DNA of 12,148 nt from a virus (IMGVR_UViG_2585427761_000002), one strand, 5' to 3'. Positions 1,151 through 6,477 are shown, counted from the stretch's first letter. Notes: a model not told the origin generated them from the letters alone. A program made the numbers and translations.

Positions 1151-2739
1151 AACGAACGCCTGTCCTGATTGATGTGAACGGCGTTCCGCTTCGGGAGAGC
1201 CTCAGCTACAACGGTGGCGGTGCAGGATTTGGCGGGCAAATGGCAGAGTGGTTGCCACCCTCGCAGAGTGCCGATGCGGCCCTGCTGCCCGCGTTGCGTC
1301 TGGGGAATGCCCGTGCAGATGATCTGGTGCGCAATAACGGAATAGCGGCCAATGCGGTGGCCCTGCATAAGGATCACATTGTCGGGCATATGTTTCTGAT
1401 TAGCTACCGTCCGAACTGGCGCTGGCTGGGGATGCGGGAGACCGCAGCAAAAAGCTTTGTCGATGAGGTGGAGGCGGCCTGGTCGGAATACGCCGAAGGG
1501 ATGTCTGGCGAGATCGACGTGGAAGGAAAACGCACGTTCACGGAATTTATCCGTGAAGGTGTGGGCGTTCATGCGTTTAACGGCGAAATCTTTGTGCAGC
1601 CGGTCTGGGATACGGAAACCACGCAGTTATTCCGTACGCGTTTTAAAGCCGTGAGTCCGAAACGGGTGGACACGCCAGGACACGGTATGGGGAACCGTTT
1701 TCTGCGGGCCGGGGTGGAGGTCGATCGATATGGCCGTGCCGTTGCGTACCATATCTGTGAGGATGATTTTCCTCGCTCCGGGAGTGGACGATGGGAACGG
1801 ATCCCGCGTGAACTTGCCACCGGGCGTCCGGCCATGCTGCATATTTTCGAGCCGGTGGAGGACGGGCAGACCCGTGGGGCTAATCAGTTTTACAGCGTCA
1901 TGGAACGGCTGAAGATGCTCGATTCCCTGCAGGCAACACAGCTTCAGTCGGCCATAGTGAAGGCGATGTATGCAGCGACGATTGAAAGTGAACTTGATAC
2001 CGAAAAGGCCTTTGAATATATCGCCGGCGCGCCACAGGAGCAGAAGGATAATCCGCTTATTAATATTCTGGAGAAGTTCTCCAGCTGGTATGACACGAAT
2101 AACGTGACACTGGGCGGTGTCAAAATTCCGCACCTTTTCCCTGGTGATGATCTGAAACTACAGACTGCGCAGGATTCAGACAATGGATTTTCTGCGCTTG
2201 AACAGGCGCTGCTGCGGTATATCGCCGCCGGTCTTGGCGTTTCCTACGAACAGTTGTCCCGTGATTACTCGAAGGTCAGTTATTCAAGTGCCAGGGCCTC
2301 TGCCAATGAGTCGTGGCGCTATTTTATGGGGCGGCGAAAATTTATTGCGGCCCGGCTGGCCACGCAGATGTTTTCCTGCTGGCTGGAAGAGGCACTTCTT
2401 CGGGGGATTATTCGTCCGCCACGGGCACGTTTTGATTTTTATCAGGCGCGATCAGCCTGGTCACGGGCAGAGTGGATTGGTGCCGGAAGAATGGCCATTG
2501 ACGGGCTCAAGGAGGTTCAGGAATCGGTGATGCGCATTGAGGCCGGACTGAGCACGTATGAGAAAGAGCTGGCGCTGATGGGCGAGGATTATCAGGACAT
2601 TTTCCGCCAGCAGGTCAGGGAATCTGCTGAGCGGCAAAAAGCCGGACTCTCACGTCCGGTGTGGATAGCGCAGGCGTATCAGCAGCAGATAGCGGAGAGT
2701 CGCAGGCCGGAAGAGGAGACAACACCACGTGAGACGTAA
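1147..2739 (+). CDS. B: Portal protein gpB
   Basis: 530-aa product with long stretches matching lambda gpB (for example NARADDLVRNNG, FEPVEDGQTRGAN, YSVME..KMLD.LQ.TQLQSAIVKAMYAATIESELDT, LLRYIAAGLGVSYEQLSR, GRMAIDGLKEVQE, AGLSTYEKE). ATG at 1147 overlaps the W stop. Confidence 0.95.
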   Translation: MKRTPVLIDVNGVPLRESLSYNGGGAGFGGQMAEWLPPSQSADAALLPALRLGNARADDLVRNNGIAANAVALHKDHIVGHMFLISYRPNWRWLGMRETAAKSFVDEVEAAWSEYAEGMSGEIDVEGKRTFTEFIREGVGVHAFNGEIFVQPVWDTETTQLFRTRFKAVSPKRVDTPGHGMGNRFLRAGVEVDRYGRAVAYHICEDDFPRSGSGRWERIPRELATGRPAMLHIFEPVEDGQTRGANQFYSVMERLKMLDSLQATQLQSAIVKAMYAATIESELDTEKAFEYIAGAPQEQKDNPLINILEKFSSWYDTNNVTLGGVKIPHLFPGDDLKLQTAQDSDNGFSALEQALLRYIAAGLGVSYEQLSRDYSKVSYSSARASANESWRYFMGRRKFIAARLATQMFSCWLEEALLRGIIRPPRARFDFYQARSAWSRAEWIGAGRMAIDGLKEVQESVMRIEAGLSTYEKELALMGEDYQDIFRQQVRESAERQKAGLSRPVWIAQAYQQQIAESRRPEEETTPRET

Positions 2740-4234
2740 TCTTTCACACATTATTGCCGCAGCATTCAATGAACCGCTGCTTCTGGAGCCCGCCTATGCG
2801 CGGGTTTTCTTTTGCGCGCTCGGGCGCGAGATGGGGGCAGCAAGTCTTTCGGTACCACAACAGCAGGTACAGTTTGATGCTCCCGGAATGCTGGCTGAAA
2901 CGGACGAGTACATGGCCGGAGGTAAACGACCGGCCCGTGTTTACAGGGTGGTGAACGGTATTGCTGTACTGCCGGTGACCGGCACGCTGGTGCACCGGCT
3001 GGGGGGGATGCGGCCATTTTCCGGAATGACAGGCTATGACGGCATTGTCGCCTGTCTTCAGCAGGCAATGGCGGATAGCCAGGTGCGGGGCGTACTGCTG
3101 GACATTGACAGTCCGGGCGGGCAGGCCGCCGGCGCGTTTGACTGCGCTGACATGATTTACCGCCTCCGTCAGCAGAAGCCGGTCTGGGCACTGTGCAATG
3201 ACACGGCCTGTTCTGCAGCCATGCTGCTGGCGTCGGCCTGCTCCCGACGGCTGGTTACCCAGACATCCCGTATCGGCTCCATTGGCGTGATGATGAGCCA
3301 TGTCAGCTATGCCGGTCATCTGGCGCAGGCCGGTGTGGATATCACGCTGATTTACTCAGGGGCGCACAAGGTGGATGGCAATCAGTTTGAAGCCTTACCG
3401 GCAGAGGTTCGCCAGGACATGCAGCAGCGCATTGATGCGGCGCGCCGGATGTTTGCCGAAAAAGTGGCCATGTTTACCGGTCTGTCTGTTGATGCCGTCA
3501 CGGGAACAGAGGCCGCCGTTTTTGAAGGTCAGTCCGGCATTGATGCCGGGCTGGCGGATGAATTAGTCAATGCGTCGGATGCCATCAGTGTGATGGCCAC
3601 GGCGCTGAACAGTAATGTCAGAGGAGGCACTATGCCGCAATTAACTGCAACGGAAGCCGCAGTGCAGGAGAACCAGCGAGTGATGGGGATCCTGACGTGT
3701 CAGGAAGCGAAAGGACGTGAACAGCTTGCCACGATGCTGGCAGGGCAACAGGGCATGAGCGTTGAACAGGCCCGGGCGATTCTGGCCGCGGCGGCACCGC
3801 AGCAGCCGGTGGCATCCACGCAGAGTGAAGCCGATCGCATTATGGCGTGTGAAGAAGCGAACGGTCGTGAACAACTGGCGGCAACGCTGGCGGCGATGCC
3901 GGAGATGACGGTGGAAAAAGCCCGCCCGATCCTGGCGGCTGCACCACTGGCGGATGCCGGGCCCTCACTTCGTGATCAGATCATGGCCCTGGATGAGGCA
4001 AAAGGGGCAGAAGCGCAGGCTGAAAAACTGGCGGCCTGCCCGGGAATGACCGTGGAGAACGCCCGGGCTGTGCTGGCTGCGGGATCAGGTAAGGCCGAAC
4101 CGGTCTCTGCATCCACAACCGCCCTGTTTGAACGCATCATGGCGAACCATTCACCGGCAGCGGTACAGGGTGGCGTGCCACAGACGTCAGCAGACGGTGA
4201 TGCGGACGTGAAAATGCTCATGGCTATGCCATGA
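2729..4234 (+). CDS. C: Prohead protease / scaffold protein gpC (S49 family serine peptidase, lambda gpC-like), probable GTG start
   Basis: 501-aa product; the N-terminal two-thirds matches lambda gpC (AFNEPLLLEPAYARVFFCAL, GYDGI, LLDIDSPGG, AFDCADMIYRLRQQKPVWALCNDTACSAAMLLASACSRRLVTQTSRIGSIGVMMSHVSYAGHLAQAGVDITLIYSGAHKVDGN). The first codon at 2729 is GTG, with GAGGAG about 10 nt upstream. The start overlaps the end of B by 11 nt. Confidence 0.9.
   Translation: MRRNLSHIIAAAFNEPLLLEPAYARVFFCALGREMGAASLSVPQQQVQFDAPGMLAETDEYMAGGKRPARVYRVVNGIAVLPVTGTLVHRLGGMRPFSGMTGYDGIVACLQQAMADSQVRGVLLDIDSPGGQAAGAFDCADMIYRLRQQKPVWALCNDTACSAAMLLASACSRRLVTQTSRIGSIGVMMSHVSYAGHLAQAGVDITLIYSGAHKVDGNQFEALPAEVRQDMQQRIDAARRMFAEKVAMFTGLSVDAVTGTEAAVFEGQSGIDAGLADELVNASDAISVMATALNSNVRGGTMPQLTATEAAVQENQRVMGILTCQEAKGREQLATMLAGQQGMSVEQARAILAAAAPQQPVASTQSEADRIMACEEANGREQLAATLAAMPEMTVEKARPILAAAPLADAGPSLRDQIMALDEAKGAEAQAEKLAACPGMTVENARAVLAAGSGKAEPVSASTTALFERIMANHSPAAVQGGVPQTSADGDADVKMLMAMP
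3632..4234 (+). CDS. Nu3: Nu3-like scaffolding protein from an internal in-frame start within C (nested gene)
   Basis: In-frame ATG at 3632 is preceded by a strong Shine-Dalgarno GAGGAGG at 3621-3627. In lambda, Nu3 is translated in the C frame from an internal start and shares the C-terminus of gpC. The exact start here is inferred, not proven. Confidence 0.55.
   Translation: MPQLTATEAAVQENQRVMGILTCQEAKGREQLATMLAGQQGMSVEQARAILAAAAPQQPVASTQSEADRIMACEEANGREQLAATLAAMPEMTVEKARPILAAAPLADAGPSLRDQIMALDEAKGAEAQAEKLAACPGMTVENARAVLAAGSGKAEPVSASTTALFERIMANHSPAAVQGGVPQTSADGDADVKMLMAMP
3668..4093 (+). repeat. Three degenerate tandem copies of a ~46-47-aa motif within the C/Nu3 C-terminal scaffold region
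   Basis: Protein-level repeats: ENQRVMGILTCQEAKGREQLATMLAGQQGMSVEQARAILAAAAP (from 3668); EADRIMACEEANGREQLAATLAAMPEMTVEKARPILAAAPL (from 3827); LRDQIMALDEAKGAEAQAEKLAACPGMTVENARAVLAAG (from 3968). Spacing is 159 and 141 nt; the copies are diverged at the DNA level. Confidence 0.8.
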
Positions 4235-4270: not shown

Positions 4271-4618
4271 ATGGTAACGAAAACCATCACTGAACAGCGT
4301 GCGGAAGTACGTATTTTTGCCGGTAATGATCCGGCTCATACCGCCACAGGCAGCAGCGGGATTTCCTCGGCAACACCGGCACTGACGCCCCTGATGCTGG
4401 ATGAAGCCAGCGGGAAACTGGTGGTCTGGGACGGACAGAAAGCCGGTAGTGCGGTTGGCATACTGGTACTGCCGCTTGAAGGCACAGAGACGGTACTGAC
4501 GTATTACAAGTCGGGGACCTTTGCGACGGAGGCAATCCGCTGGCCTGACAGTGTGGATGAACACAAAAAGGCAAATGCCTTTGCCGGCAGTGCCCTGAGT
4601 CACGCGGCGCTGCCGTAA
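4271..4618 (+). CDS. D: Head decoration protein gpD
   Basis: 115-aa product with DPAHTATG, TPLMLD, KLVVWDG, AVGIL, YYKSGTF and AFAG, matching lambda gpD (110 aa). ATG at 4271 with AGGAGG upstream. Confidence 0.93.
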   Translation: MVTKTITEQRAEVRIFAGNDPAHTATGSSGISSATPALTPLMLDEASGKLVVWDGQKAGSAVGILVLPLEGTETVLTYYKSGTFATEAIRWPDSVDEHKKANAFAGSALSHAALP

Positions 4619-4675: not shown

Positions 4676-5701
4676 ATGGGATTGTTTACGACCCGCCAGT
4701 TACTCGGTTATACCGAACAAAAAGTGAAATTTCGTGCGCTGTTTCTGGAGCTGTTTTTCCGCCGTACGGTGAATTTCCATACCGAAGAGGTGATGCTGGA
4801 CAAAATTACCGGAAAAACGCCGGTGGCGGCCTATGTCTCCCCGGTCGTTGAAGGAAAAGTGCTGCGTCATCGCGGTGGTGAAACCCGCGTGTTACGTCCG
4901 GGCTACGTCAAGCCGAAACACGAATTTAATTACCAGCAGGCGGTTGAGCGTCTTCCCGGTGAAGATCCGGCTCAACTGAACGACCCGGCCTACCGTCGTC
5001 TGCGTATCATCACCGATAACCTCAAACAGGAAGAGCATGCCATTGTCCAGGTGGAAGAAATGCAGGCGGTGAATGCCGTGCTGTATGGCAAATACACCAT
5101 GGAAGGAGACCAGTTCGAGAAAATCGAAGTCGATTTTGGACGATCGAAGAAAATAACATCAGCAGGCAGCGGTAAAAAATGGTCAAAACAGGACCGTGAC
5201 ACGTTCGACCCGACACATGATATCGACCTCTACTGCGATCAGGCCAGCGATCTTGTGAATATTGCCATTATGGACGGTACTGTCTGGCGTCTGCTGAATG
5301 GTTTTAAGCTGTTCCGCGAAAAAATGGATACCCGTCGCGGCTCAAATTCACAACTCGAAACGGCAGTGAAAGACCTGGGCGCAGTGGTATCCTTCAAAGG
5401 GTATTACGGCGATCTGGCCATTGTGGTAGCGAAAACGTCTTATGTGGCAGAGGACGGTACCGAAAAACGTTATCTGCCGGAGGGCACGCTGGTGCTGGGG
5501 AATACGGCAGCAGAGGGGATTCGTTGCTATGGAGCCATTAAGGATGCACAGGCGTTGTCTGAAGGAGTGGTGGCTTCTTCCCGTTACCCGAAACACTGGC
5601 TGACCGTGGGCGATCCGTCCTGTGAATTCACCATGACGCAGTCCGCGCCGCTGATGGTGCTGCCGGATCCGGATGAGTTTGTGGTGGTACAGGTGAAATA
5701 A
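4676..5701 (+). CDS. E: Major capsid protein gpE
   Basis: 341-aa product, the same length as lambda gpE, with extensive identity (PGYVKPKHE, DPAYRR.RII, VEEMQAV.AVL.GKYTM, DTRRGSNS.LETAVKDLG, YPK.W.T.GDP..EFTM.QSAPLM.L.DPDEFV.VQ). AAGGAA lies 7 nt upstream of the ATG. Confidence 0.95.
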   Translation: MGLFTTRQLLGYTEQKVKFRALFLELFFRRTVNFHTEEVMLDKITGKTPVAAYVSPVVEGKVLRHRGGETRVLRPGYVKPKHEFNYQQAVERLPGEDPAQLNDPAYRRLRIITDNLKQEEHAIVQVEEMQAVNAVLYGKYTMEGDQFEKIEVDFGRSKKITSAGSGKKWSKQDRDTFDPTHDIDLYCDQASDLVNIAIMDGTVWRLLNGFKLFREKMDTRRGSNSQLETAVKDLGAVVSFKGYYGDLAIVVAKTSYVAEDGTEKRYLPEGTLVLGNTAAEGIRCYGAIKDAQALSEGVVASSRYPKHWLTVGDPSCEFTMTQSAPLMVLPDPDEFVVVQVK

Positions 5702-5752: not shown

Positions 5753-6117
5753 ATGGCAACAAAAGAAGAAAATCAGAAACGTCTTCGTGAACTGGCTGGT
5801 CTGCTGGGGCGCGAGGCGGATATGTCGGGGAGTGCTGCGGATATCGCACAGCGTGTGGCAGAGTGGGAAGAGGAGGTTTGCGCCTCGGAAAATGAAATCG
5901 CAGATGTTGATGAGACCGGGCATGAGCAAAATCACACACACCGGTGAGCATGACAACACTATGCTGGAACGTAGCAGGCTTCGGAAATGCCTGCACCTGT
6001 GCGGTATTGACGGAAACAGGCCAGCCCGTTGAACTGACGTACCGGGGCATGCGTGTTCTGGTGCCATCACCACTGGCGACAGCCATGATACAGCACGGAA
6101 CGGCTGAGCATGCGTGA
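5753..6117 (+). pseudogene. FI: FI-like DNA-packaging / head assembly gene, apparently split across two reading frames
   Basis: ATG at 5753 with AGGGAG upstream. Frame 2 gives MATKEENQKRLRELAGLLGREADMSGSAADIAQRVAEWEEEV...DETGHEQNHTHR then a stop at 5945-5947, resembling the lambda gpFI N-terminus. Frame 1, open from 5926, gives ...CAVLTETGQPVELTYRGMRVLVPSPLATAMIQHGTAEHA and stops at 6115-6117 overlapping the FII start, resembling the lambda gpFI C-terminus. The frames overlap at 5926-5944, which contains a (CA)4 tract at 5933-5941. Confidence 0.55.
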
Positions 6118-6462
6118 TTTTCAGAATGCCTTTGATGCTGCCCTCGCCGGGGTGGACAGTACGATTGTTGAAGTGATGGGCTCTGTGCACAGTTCACCTC
6201 GGGGGCACAGTGTGGCGGAGAAGTTCAGGGGGTTTTTGACGATCCGGAGTCGCTGGGATTTGCCGGTAGCGGGGTCCGTATTGAAGGAAGCAGCCCGTCA
6301 TTATTTGTGCGGACGGATACGGTGCGTGCCGTGCGGCGTGGTGACACGCTGACCATTAACGGCGAGATGTTCTGGGTGGATCGTGTTTCTCCGGATGACG
6401 GGGGAAGCTGTTATCTCTGGCTCAACCGTGGGCAACCACCCGCTGTTAACCGGCGACGATAA
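6110..6462 (+). pseudogene. FII: FII head-tail joining gene with an apparent 1-nt deletion (frameshift) near codon 25
   Basis: Frame 2 from ATG 6110 gives MRDFQNAFDAALAGVDSTIVEVMGS, matching the lambda gpFII N-terminus MADFDNLFDAAIARADETIRGYMGTS. The homology then continues in frame 1 from about 6184: (C)AQFTSGAQCGGEVQGVFDDPESLGFAGSGVRIEGSSPSLFVRTDTVRAVRRGDTLTINGEMFWVDRVSPDDGGSCYLWLNRGQPPAVNRRR, stop 6460-6462, matching the rest of lambda gpFII. 25 + 92 codons = 117, the length I recall for lambda gpFII. The frame-2 ORF instead runs to 6352 with unrelated sequence. Confidence 0.8.
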
Positions 6463-6477
6463 ACGCAGGGTGAAATT

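What the first reader, a model, noticed from the sequence alone, without database searches (positions are those of the whole stretch)
3668..4093. Three-copy tandem motif in the C/Nu3 scaffold domain, apparently expanded relative to lambda
The C-terminal third of gpC (shared with the nested Nu3 frame) contains three diverged tandem copies of a ~46-aa unit with consensus [ED]xxRIM[GA].x.xEA.GRE.LA..LA..P.MTVE.AR.ILAAA. As I recall the lambda sequence, it has essentially one clear copy of this unit, and gpC is 439 aa versus 501 aa here, so the extra ~60 aa are accounted for by repeat copies. The copies are diverged at the nucleotide level, so this is an old duplication rather than recent slippage. 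The scaffold domain sets prohead assembly and is removed by the protease, so copy-number variation could alter scaffold-capsid stoichiometry or interactions.
Basis: partly seen in the sequence, partly recalled or inferred. Interest (0 to 1): 0.5.

Follow-up and report, generated by a model that had tools for sequence, protein, structure and literature searches.

The report
Known triplicated scaffold motif, phage 21-type
The phage head-assembly (scaffold) protein in this window carries three diverged tandem copies of a roughly 42-residue helical motif that phage lambda has only once, but GenBank's 1990s phage 21 record already marks the triplication as "Tri boxes" and about a third of complete E. 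coli genomes carry it, so it is real but ordinary.

Summary
The gpC-like ORF (2729-4234, 501 aa) has an S49 protease domain followed by three tandem units at aa 314-355, 367-408 and 414-455 (nt 3668-4093). Pairwise scores lie 12-17 SD above shuffles, and the unit HMM gives i-E about 1e-25 per copy.

- **Copy number in relatives:** lambda, phi80, N15 and HK225 have one copy. Phage 21 and Salmonella Gifsy-1 have three.
- **Age:** the copies are orthologous one-to-one between this window and Gifsy-1, and are 59-70% identical to each other at the nucleotide level. The triplication is therefore old.
- **Not new:** the window is 97.4% identical to the phage 21 head operon. GenBank record M81255 annotates "Tri1 box / Tri box / Tri3 box" at exactly these positions in gene 6, the Nu3 analogue. 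The same region occurs in 1865 of 5426 complete E. coli genomes.
- **What I add:**
  - Close relatives carry 2-, 2.5- and 4-copy variants made by recombination within the array. They sit next to 94-100% identical capsid proteins.
  - All 19 deposited phages of this type keep three copies.
- **Structure and function:**
  - AlphaFold predicts helix-turn-helix hairpins joined by flexible linkers.
  - Their role as multivalent capsid-binding or self-association modules is inferred, not shown.

Verdict: already known, low interest.

The parts
2729..4234 (+). gpC / phage 21 gp5 homologue: S49 prohead protease fused to the scaffold domain. It is 501 aa, starts with GTG and overlaps the end of the portal gene by 11 nt.
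   Evidence: ORF list. 97.4% nucleotide identity over the full length to phage 21 gene 5. 13 aa differences from phage 21 gp5.
3164..3607 (+). Peptidase_S49 domain (aa 146-293).
   Evidence: Pfam PF01343, E = 7e-35, 120.7 bits against a cutoff of 24.9. No Pfam family covers aa 300-501.
3621..3627 (+). Shine-Dalgarno-like GAGGAGG, encoded by the Gly-Gly codons, 4 nt upstream of the internal ATG.
   Evidence: Sequence. Annotated as a putative RBS for gene 6 in both phage 21 records. The same arrangement occurs in lambda (Met309), Gifsy-1 and N15.
3632..4234 (+). Nested in-frame scaffold ORF (phage 21 gp6 / lambda Nu3 analogue), 200 aa, Met302 to the stop codon.
   Evidence: Annotated CDS 'head-tail preconnector gp6' / 'scaffolding protein' at the equivalent position in M81255 and OL657228. 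Hits phrog_8399 'head scaffolding protein'.
3668..3793 (+). Unit 1 (aa 314-355). It is the orthologue of lambda's single unit and shares its 3-residue 'MGI' insertion. The core coincides with the 'Tri1 box' (window 3699-3802).
   Evidence: HMM i-E 7e-25. Alignment. Tri1 box coordinates, offset +1228.
3827..3952 (+). Unit 2 (aa 367-408). The core coincides with the 'Tri box' (window 3839-3949).
   Evidence: HMM i-E 3e-26. 77% identical to Gifsy-1 unit 2. Coordinates.
3968..4093 (+). Unit 3 (aa 414-455). The core coincides with the 'Tri3 box' (window 3980-4093).
   Evidence: HMM i-E 6e-26. 61% identical to Gifsy-1 unit 3. Coordinates.
4094..4231 (+). C-terminal tail (aa 456-501).
- It opens with ALFERIMANH, which resembles the start of a unit.
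- It ends with KMLMAMP.
- It is predicted to be largely disordered.
   Evidence: AlphaFold pLDDT is below 50 for residues 174-200 of the nested protein. A 15-nt family encoding D/E-R/Q-I-M-A occurs at 3832, 3973 and 4129. Analogous tails are ALDRLMQ...DLLNTPV in lambda and AFDAFMQ...TLLMSIP in Gifsy-1.

Best explanation
**What it is (near certain).** The window is the head-tail region of a phage 21-type lambdoid (pro)phage. The region is the scaffold part of its gp5/gp6 protein, the lambda C/Nu3 analogue. It contains the conserved roughly 42-residue core motif of lambda-type Nu3 scaffolds three times in tandem. The first copy is the orthologue of lambda's single copy. Copies 2 and 3 arose by ancient in-frame duplications that predate the split between E. 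coli phage 21-type and Salmonella Gifsy-1-type phages.

**How it most likely works (inferred, about 45% confidence).**
- Each unit folds as a small, independent helix-turn-helix hairpin.
- The hairpins are joined by flexible Pro/Ala/Gln-rich linkers.
- The scaffold (gp6) and the protease (gp5), which share this C-terminus, therefore each present three equivalent contact modules.
- The modules bind the inner face of the major capsid protein and/or other scaffold chains during prohead assembly.
- This targets the protease into the shell.
- The S49 protease then degrades the scaffold before DNA packaging.

On this reading, three modules per chain do what lambda does with one module plus a long polar linker.
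For: **Shown**
- An S49 domain is followed by three significant repeats.
- A nested start is preceded by a Shine-Dalgarno sequence.
- The gene order is terminase-W-portal-C-D-E, as in lambda.
- The window is 97.4% identical to phage 21, and that record annotates the Tri boxes.
- Lambda, phi80, N15 and HK225 have one unit. Phage 21 and Gifsy-1 have three, with copy-by-copy orthology.
- The amino-acid sequence is conserved while synonymous sites are scrambled, so selection acts on the protein and not on the DNA.
- The unit is the conserved element of the family:
  - 463 cluster representatives match at E <= 1e-3.
  - Most of the 150 best are S49-scaffold fusions or small scaffold-sized proteins with one copy.
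  - In the long proteins the unit ends a median of 52 aa before the C-terminus.
- AlphaFold predicts helix-turn-helix for every unit. Unit 1 reaches pLDDT 78-92 over its core. The linkers and the tail have low confidence.
- All 19 deposited phages of this type retain the complete three-unit array.

**Background from the literature**
- Lambda Nu3 interacts with the capsid protein E, with C and with itself in two-hybrid assays (PMC3224144).
Against: - No experiment or structure assigns a partner to the unit. No PDB chain matches it by sequence.
- Fold searches return only generic two-helix matches with no scaffold protein among them.
- The models rest on 1-3 sequences. An invariant Gly, and a frequent Pro before 'EA.GRE' in relatives, suggest that the long first helix is really two helices.
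- Variants with 2, 2.5 and 4 units coexist with 94-100% identical capsid proteins. Valency is therefore not tightly matched to the capsid protein, unless those prophages are defective.
- The conserved C-terminal tail, rather than the units, could be the capsid-binding element.
Confidence: 0.5

Rival explanations
1. The units are scaffold-scaffold (oligomerisation) or portal/protease-contact modules. The conserved C-terminal tail (F-E/D-x-I/F-M ... LLxxP) is the element that binds the capsid protein. On this reading, triplication changes scaffold network connectivity rather than capsid valency.
For: [quoted passage not shown]
- A tail of about 40-50 aa with recurring motifs follows the last unit in lambda, phage 21, Gifsy-1 and many relatives.
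- In P22 the coat-binding element lies at the extreme C-terminus (PMC11565965), which is where the tail sits here, not the units.
- Changes in copy number occur without any change in the capsid protein.
Against: - The tail is predicted disordered with pLDDT below 50.
- The tail is far less conserved than the units. Only 42 of 138 tails carry the first motif and 28 of 138 the second, under loose patterns.
- There is no direct evidence for either partner.
Confidence: 0.27
2. The extra copies are mainly bulk or spacer. What matters is the length or volume of the flexible scaffold chain inside the prohead. Two extra units replace the long polar linker of lambda-type Nu3, and copy number is nearly neutral.
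For: - Lambda, N15 and phi80 have a low-complexity linker of 47-60 aa between the internal Met and the unit, where phage 21 and Gifsy-1 have 12 aa.
- Variants with 2, 2.5, 3 and 4 copies occur with almost the same protease domain (98-99%) and capsid protein (94-100%).
- The 482-aa form with a broken unit 2 is the most frequently seen variant, listed in 3592 index blocks.
Against: - All three units keep the same 16 invariant positions.
- Each unit is conserved with its Gifsy-1 orthologue at 61-77%, although the whole scaffold region is only 53.5% identical. A spacer would not be held like this.
- All 19 deposited phages have the intact three-unit form and none has a shortened one.
Confidence: 0.18
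3. The apparent repeat is not a real protein feature. It could be a composition effect of an Ala/Glu-rich region, or a DNA-level element such as the CII-binding sites annotated in this region of OL657228.
For: - The region is Ala-rich.
- Two TTGYNNNNNNTTGY matches lie inside it on the minus strand, at 3637-3650 and 3871-3884.
Against: - Composition-preserving shuffles never approach the observed scores (z = 12-17).
- The copies align in register with 16 invariant columns.
- The CII pattern occurs twice in the window against 2.29 expected by chance.
- Nucleotide identity between copies is low while the amino-acid motif is kept.
Confidence: 0.01

Closest known systems
Phage 21 gp5/gp6 (head-tail preconnector / scaffold) with 'Tri1', 'Tri' and 'Tri3' boxes. 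GenBank M81255 and OL657228. The Gifsy-1 record's note cites it as Swiss-Prot VG05_BPP21.
   Same: - It is the same gene: 1506 nt and 501 aa in both, 97.4% nucleotide identity, 13 aa differences.
- It has the same internal RBS and ATG.
- The annotated Tri boxes map onto the cores of units 1-3.
   Different: Only point substitutions, five of them inside the units: A373V, A405S, L407Q, K433Q and N444S. The record notes 'function unknown; putative' for the boxes, so the function is still unassigned.
Lambda gpC / gpNu3, the S49 prohead protease with a nested scaffold. Also N15 gp5/gp6, phi80 and HK225.
   Same: - Same gene position.
- Same S49 domain; the N-terminal 300 aa are 60-62% identical.
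- An internal start preceded by a Shine-Dalgarno sequence, at the aligned position.
- Same unit motif; unit 1 is 61-64% identical to the lambda and N15 units and shares their 3-residue insertion.
- A similar C-terminal tail.
   Different: - Lambda-type proteins have one unit preceded by a polar linker of 47-60 aa. This protein has three units and a 12-aa lead-in.
- The capsid proteins of the two groups are only 58-62% identical.
Salmonella prophage Gifsy-1 gpC homologue (STM2605).
   Same: A 498-aa protein with three units in the same order, each most similar to its positional counterpart here (76/77/61%).
   Different: It has a different host genus. The scaffold region is 53.5% identical and the protease domain 70% identical.
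P22 scaffolding protein C-terminal helix-turn-helix coat-binding domain. Analogous helical motifs occur in the SPP1, phi29 and 80alpha scaffolds.
   Same: A small helix-turn-helix element in an otherwise flexible internal scaffold protein of a T=7 tailed phage (PMC11565965; predictions).
   Different: - There is no sequence or specific fold match.
- The units here are repeated and are followed by a 46-aa tail, so they are not at the extreme C-terminus.
- The scaffold is fused in frame to a protease and is degraded, not recycled.
- This is an analogy only.

Membership tests
Lambda-type gpC/Nu3 (phage 21 gp5/gp6) S49 protease-scaffold | N-terminal Peptidase_S49 (SppA-like) domain. | tested here: met
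   PF01343, E = 7e-35, aa 146-293. phrog_53 'head maturation protease', E = 7e-228.
Lambda-type gpC/Nu3 (phage 21 gp5/gp6) S49 protease-scaffold | Gene lies between the portal gene and the decoration and major capsid genes of a lambda-like head operon. | tested here: met
   The order is portal (1147-2739), this ORF, a 115-aa decoration protein (4271-4618) and a 341-aa capsid protein (4676-5701). The same order, with Pfam labels, occurs in relatives and in lambda.
Lambda-type gpC/Nu3 (phage 21 gp5/gp6) S49 protease-scaffold | In-frame internal translation start that yields a nested scaffold protein identical to the C-terminus of the protease. | tested here: inconclusive
   The sequence signals are present and conserved: GAGGAGG lies 4 nt before ATG 3632, and equivalents occur in lambda, Gifsy-1 and N15. 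The start is annotated in the phage 21 and N15 records. Actual translation from this start cannot be tested with these tools.
Lambda-type gpC/Nu3 (phage 21 gp5/gp6) S49 protease-scaffold | Conserved Nu3 core motif (R-I/V-M ... EA.GRE.LA..LA...M[TS]VE.A..ILAAA) followed by a tail of about 40-50 aa. | tested here: met
   The motif is present three times. Single-copy scaffold PHROG profiles hit three stretches. The tail is 46 aa.
Phage 21 'Tri box' triplication | Three annotated repeat regions within gene 6 at fixed positions. | tested here: met
   M81255 repeat_regions at locus 2471-2574, 2611-2721 and 2752-2865. The alignment is ungapped and full-length (offset +1228). They map to window 3699-3802, 3839-3949 and 3980-4093, which are the cores of units 1-3.
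P22-type scaffold coat-binding helix-turn-helix domain | Structural similarity to the solved helix-turn-helix coat-binding domain, located at the extreme C-terminus. | tested here: not met
P22-type scaffold coat-binding helix-turn-helix domain | Direct binding to the major capsid protein. | not testable with these tools
   This needs binding assays, a prohead structure or a multimer prediction, none of which was available.

The most novel reading that the evidence does not exclude
The number of Nu3 units is an evolvable, loosely constrained parameter of lambda-type scaffolds.

- Recombination within the array, mostly between units, repeatedly generates 2-, 2.5-, 3- and 4-unit forms next to essentially the same T=7 capsid protein.
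- Independent duplications occur in other lineages, for example the near-identical tandem copies in P0127, P0131 and P0132, and the two-copy distant forms P0165 and P0270.

If the shortened and lengthened forms are functional, each unit acts as an autonomous binding module. Scaffold valency could then be changed without re-tuning the capsid protein. That would make this a natural allelic series for testing how scaffold valency controls prohead assembly.
Probability: 0.3. Interest if true: 0.35.

Novelty: already known. Interest (0 to 1): 0.15.

Why it matters
It matters little as a discovery. The triplication has been annotated in the phage 21 GenBank record M81255 since the 1990s, and it is present in about a third of complete E. 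coli genomes.

Its residual value is practical. No function has been assigned to the boxes, and no structure exists for any lambda-type Nu3 unit. The natural series of 1, 2, 2.5, 3 and 4 copies next to near-identical capsid proteins offers ready-made material for asking which part of a protease-linked scaffold contacts the capsid, and whether valency matters.

Tried and rejected
- **Tandem repeat detection on DNA.** TRF found nothing. The copies are too diverged, which fits an old duplication.
- **Fold searches.**
  - Foldseek of the 200-aa model against PDB gave no hit with E <= 0.001.
  - I therefore make no structural family assignment.
- **PDB sequence searches.** Searches with the nested protein and with the unit profile gave nothing below E = 0.2.
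- **Family libraries.** Pfam and NCBIfam have no family for aa 300-501.
- **Literature.**
  - The original phage 21 head-gene paper is not in the searchable library.
  - The lambda gpNu3 biophysics paper (PMC3247018) is not held either.
  - Prior knowledge of the Tri boxes therefore rests on the GenBank annotation itself.
- **Remnants in lambda's linker.** I considered that lambda's long linker might hold degenerate remnants of units. The unit HMM run with filters off finds only one domain in lambda, so I rejected this at the available sensitivity.
- **CII binding sites.** The sites annotated in OL657228 inside this region occur at the chance rate, 2 observed against 2.29 expected.
- **Composition artefact.** Composition-preserving shuffles reject this.

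Full report
**1. What is in the window**

The window is the left-arm head and tail region of a lambdoid phage or prophage. Its genes, in order, are:
- the end of the large terminase gene;
- a W-like gene;
- portal, 1147-2739;
- a 501-aa ORF, 2729-4234;
- a 115-aa decoration protein;
- a 341-aa major capsid protein;
- the tail genes Z, U, V, G/T, H and M.

The 501-aa ORF has a Peptidase_S49 domain at aa 146-293 (E = 7e-35). No Pfam family covers the last 200 residues. Over its full length the gene is 97.4% identical at the nucleotide level to phage 21 gene 5, without gaps. It differs from phage 21 gp5 at 13 of 501 residues.

**2. Checking the observation**

The coordinates 3668-4093 are in frame and cover aa 314-455. 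Three units are present, at aa 314-355, 367-408 and 414-455.

- Pairwise local alignment scores are 103, 82 and 97. Composition-preserving shuffles average about 25 with an SD of about 5, and none of 2000 shuffles reaches the observed values (z = 12-17).
- The three copies share 16 invariant columns out of about 43.
- A unit HMM scores each copy at i-E about 1e-25.
- Profiles of single-copy scaffold proteins from PHROGs each match the nested protein in three stretches.

**3. Age of the duplication**

- The unit cores are 59-70% identical at the nucleotide level.
- Among codons for identical residues, fewer than half are the same codon.
- Tandem Repeats Finder reports nothing.
- The repeat finder reports one 105-nt pair at 70%.

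The Salmonella prophage Gifsy-1 has a 498-aa homologue with three units. Each of those is most similar to the unit in the same position here: 76, 77 and 61%, against 43-61% for paralogous comparisons. The triplication therefore predates the split between the phage 21 and Gifsy-1 lineages.

Unit 1 shares a three-residue insertion (R-V/I-M-G-I-L) with the single unit of lambda and N15, so it is their orthologue. Units 2 and 3 share the shorter form.

**4. Comparison with lambda and other relatives**

Lambda gpC (439 aa), phi80, N15 and HK225 (447 aa each) have exactly one unit.

The length arithmetic needs a correction:

| Segment | Change relative to lambda |
|---|---|
| Two extra units plus linkers | +99 aa |
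| Tail | +6 aa |
| Stretch before the first unit | -43 aa |
| Net | +62 aa |

The stretch before the first unit is shorter because lambda-type proteins carry a polar linker of 47-60 aa between the internal Met and the unit. This protein has only 12 aa there.

In a library of 1.84 billion cluster representatives, 463 proteins match the unit at E <= 1e-3. Of the best 150, 133 have one copy, 12 have two and 5 have three. Many of these representatives are fragments or fusions of lambda-type and 21-type proteins, so the counts are not independent lineages. Even so, a single copy is clearly the common state. In the long proteins the unit ends a median of 52 aa from the C-terminus.

**5. Already known**

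With the ungapped offset of +1228 they map to window 3699-3802, 3839-3949 and 3980-4093. These are the cores of units 1-3, and they end at the same base as the finding.

The 2022 complete phage 21 genome (OL657228; PMC9119081, which lists M81255 as a previously deposited fragment) annotates the nested scaffold CDS at the same internal start. The same 603-nt scaffold region occurs in 1865 of 5426 complete E. coli genomes at >= 80% coverage. The feature is real, but it is neither new nor rare.

**6. What I can add: copy-number polymorphism**

Among the 120 closest homologues, 93 have three units, 25 have two, 2 have four and 1 has six. The 93 include 482-aa forms in which unit 2 is truncated.

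| Form | Change | Breakpoint |
|---|---|---|
| 451 aa | u1/u2 chimera | In-register 50-aa deletion at CQ\|EA.GRE |
| 551 aa | Extra u3/u2 chimera | In-register 50-aa duplication at GMT\|EMTVE |
| 482 aa | Unit 2 loses 19 aa | Between two LAA motifs |
| 472 aa | Loses 29 aa | Across the u1-u2 junction |
| 657 aa | Duplicates 156 aa | Includes the internal start |

The 2-, 2.5- and 4-copy alleles lie in otherwise normal head operons. Their protease domains are 98-99% identical to the one here, and their capsid proteins 94-100% identical. The capsid protein next to the 4-copy allele matches that of phage 21 at 100% (rounded).

The 482-aa allele is very common in bacterial assemblies, being listed in 3592 index blocks. 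However, all 19 deposited phage records of this type carry the full three-unit array. Queries built from the shortened alleles align to them in two pieces spanning 607 nt. Whether the shortened alleles are functional is therefore open.

**7. Structure and likely mechanism**

AlphaFold models predict each unit as a long helix, a short turn at the conserved G-M-[ST]-V-E capping motif, and a helix of about 11 residues. The models were built from a single sequence for the 200-aa nested protein and from a 3-row alignment for unit 1.

- pLDDT is 78-92 over the core of unit 1.
- pLDDT is low in the linkers and in the last 27 residues.
- An invariant Gly, and a frequent Pro just before 'EA.GRE' in relatives, suggest that the first helix is really two helices. 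The models are too shallow to decide this.

No PDB sequence matches the unit, and fold searches return only generic hairpins.

Background from the literature:
- Scaffolds of P22, SPP1, phi29 and 80alpha use helical or helix-turn-helix motifs to contact the capsid protein (PMC11565965).

My best reading is that the units are autonomous contact modules on a flexible chain. Both the scaffold and the protease present them because they share the C-terminus. The modules bind the inner capsid surface and/or other scaffold chains, and the S49 protease then degrades the scaffold. This step is inference, at about 45-50% confidence.

The rivals are:
- a role in self-association, with the C-terminal tail as the capsid-binding element;
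- a spacer role equivalent to lambda's long linker.

The strong position-specific conservation of all three units argues against a pure spacer. The tolerance of copy-number change next to identical capsid proteins argues against tight stoichiometric matching.

**8. Verdict**

The feature is already annotated in the reference phage and is widespread. Novelty is 'already known', and interest is low (0.15).

Noticed in passing
window 5753-6465 (FI- and FII-like genes): Both genes appear frameshifted relative to close relatives.
- The FI-like reading frame stops after about 64 aa. Recognisable FI sequence then continues in two other frames.
- The FII-like ORF (6110-6352) is 80 aa instead of 117. 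A 1-nt deletion near 6177 explains this.

This suggests either a decaying prophage or indel errors in the assembly. The gpC-like gene itself is intact.
   Followed up: partly
window 5151-5163 (major capsid gene 4676-5701): Three single-base deletions relative to a close relative (L008) give a net 1-aa deletion and a locally different patch: GRS-KKITSAGSGKK against phage 21's GRSTKNNITQGSGKE. The capsid protein is 341 aa instead of 342. This could be a compensated frameshift or a variable loop.
   Followed up: partly
window 3621-3634; lambda locus L003 (gene C / nu3): - The internal scaffold start is preceded by a Shine-Dalgarno sequence formed by Gly-Gly codons (GG[TR]M).
- This is conserved at the aligned position in lambda (Met309), Gifsy-1 (Met302) and N15 (Met311). 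N15 gene 6 and phage 21 gene 6 are annotated from this Met.
- The lambda RefSeq record instead annotates nu3 as 201 aa starting about 70 codons upstream, at aa 239. I did not examine the sequence immediately upstream of that annotated start.

   Followed up: partly
proteins P0080 (721 aa), P0085/P0086 (577 aa), P0126: These are gpC-like proteins identical up to the 'AAGSG' that ends unit 3. After it they are fused to unrelated sequence. In P0085 and P0126 this is Gly/His-rich and looks like tail fibre (my visual impression, not tested); the P0080 extension was not characterised. They are probably deletion scars in prophage remnants.
   Followed up: no
protein P0001 (657 aa, on a 5.59-Mb contig): It carries a 156-aa internal duplication that repeats the end of the protease domain, the internal RBS and start, and units 1-3. 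The protein would therefore have two nested scaffold starts. This is either a rare rearrangement or an assembly artefact.
   Followed up: no
window 4129-4143 (tail, aa 467-472 'FERIMA'): The C-terminal tail begins with a motif like the first helix of a unit. A 15-nt family encoding D/E-R/Q-I-M-A occurs at 3832, 3973 and 4129. Lambda's tail has the analogous ALDRLMQ. This may be a vestigial partial fourth unit, but it is too short to test statistically.
   Followed up: partly
window 3637-3650 and 3871-3884 (minus strand): OL657228 annotates 'CII binding sites' (TTGYNNNNNNTTGY) at these positions inside the scaffold ORF. The window holds 2 matches against 2.29 expected by chance, so they are probably not meaningful.
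   Followed up: yes
proteins P0127, P0131, P0132, P0165, P0270 (cluster representatives): Other lineages show their own duplications of the unit.
- P0127, P0131 and P0132 have near-identical tandem copies (GDQIMALPEAKGREQLAQALAEQPGMTVEQAKMLLAAAP), which looks recent.
- P0165 and P0270 are two-copy forms of a much more divergent unit.

This suggests recurrent expansion.
   Followed up: no
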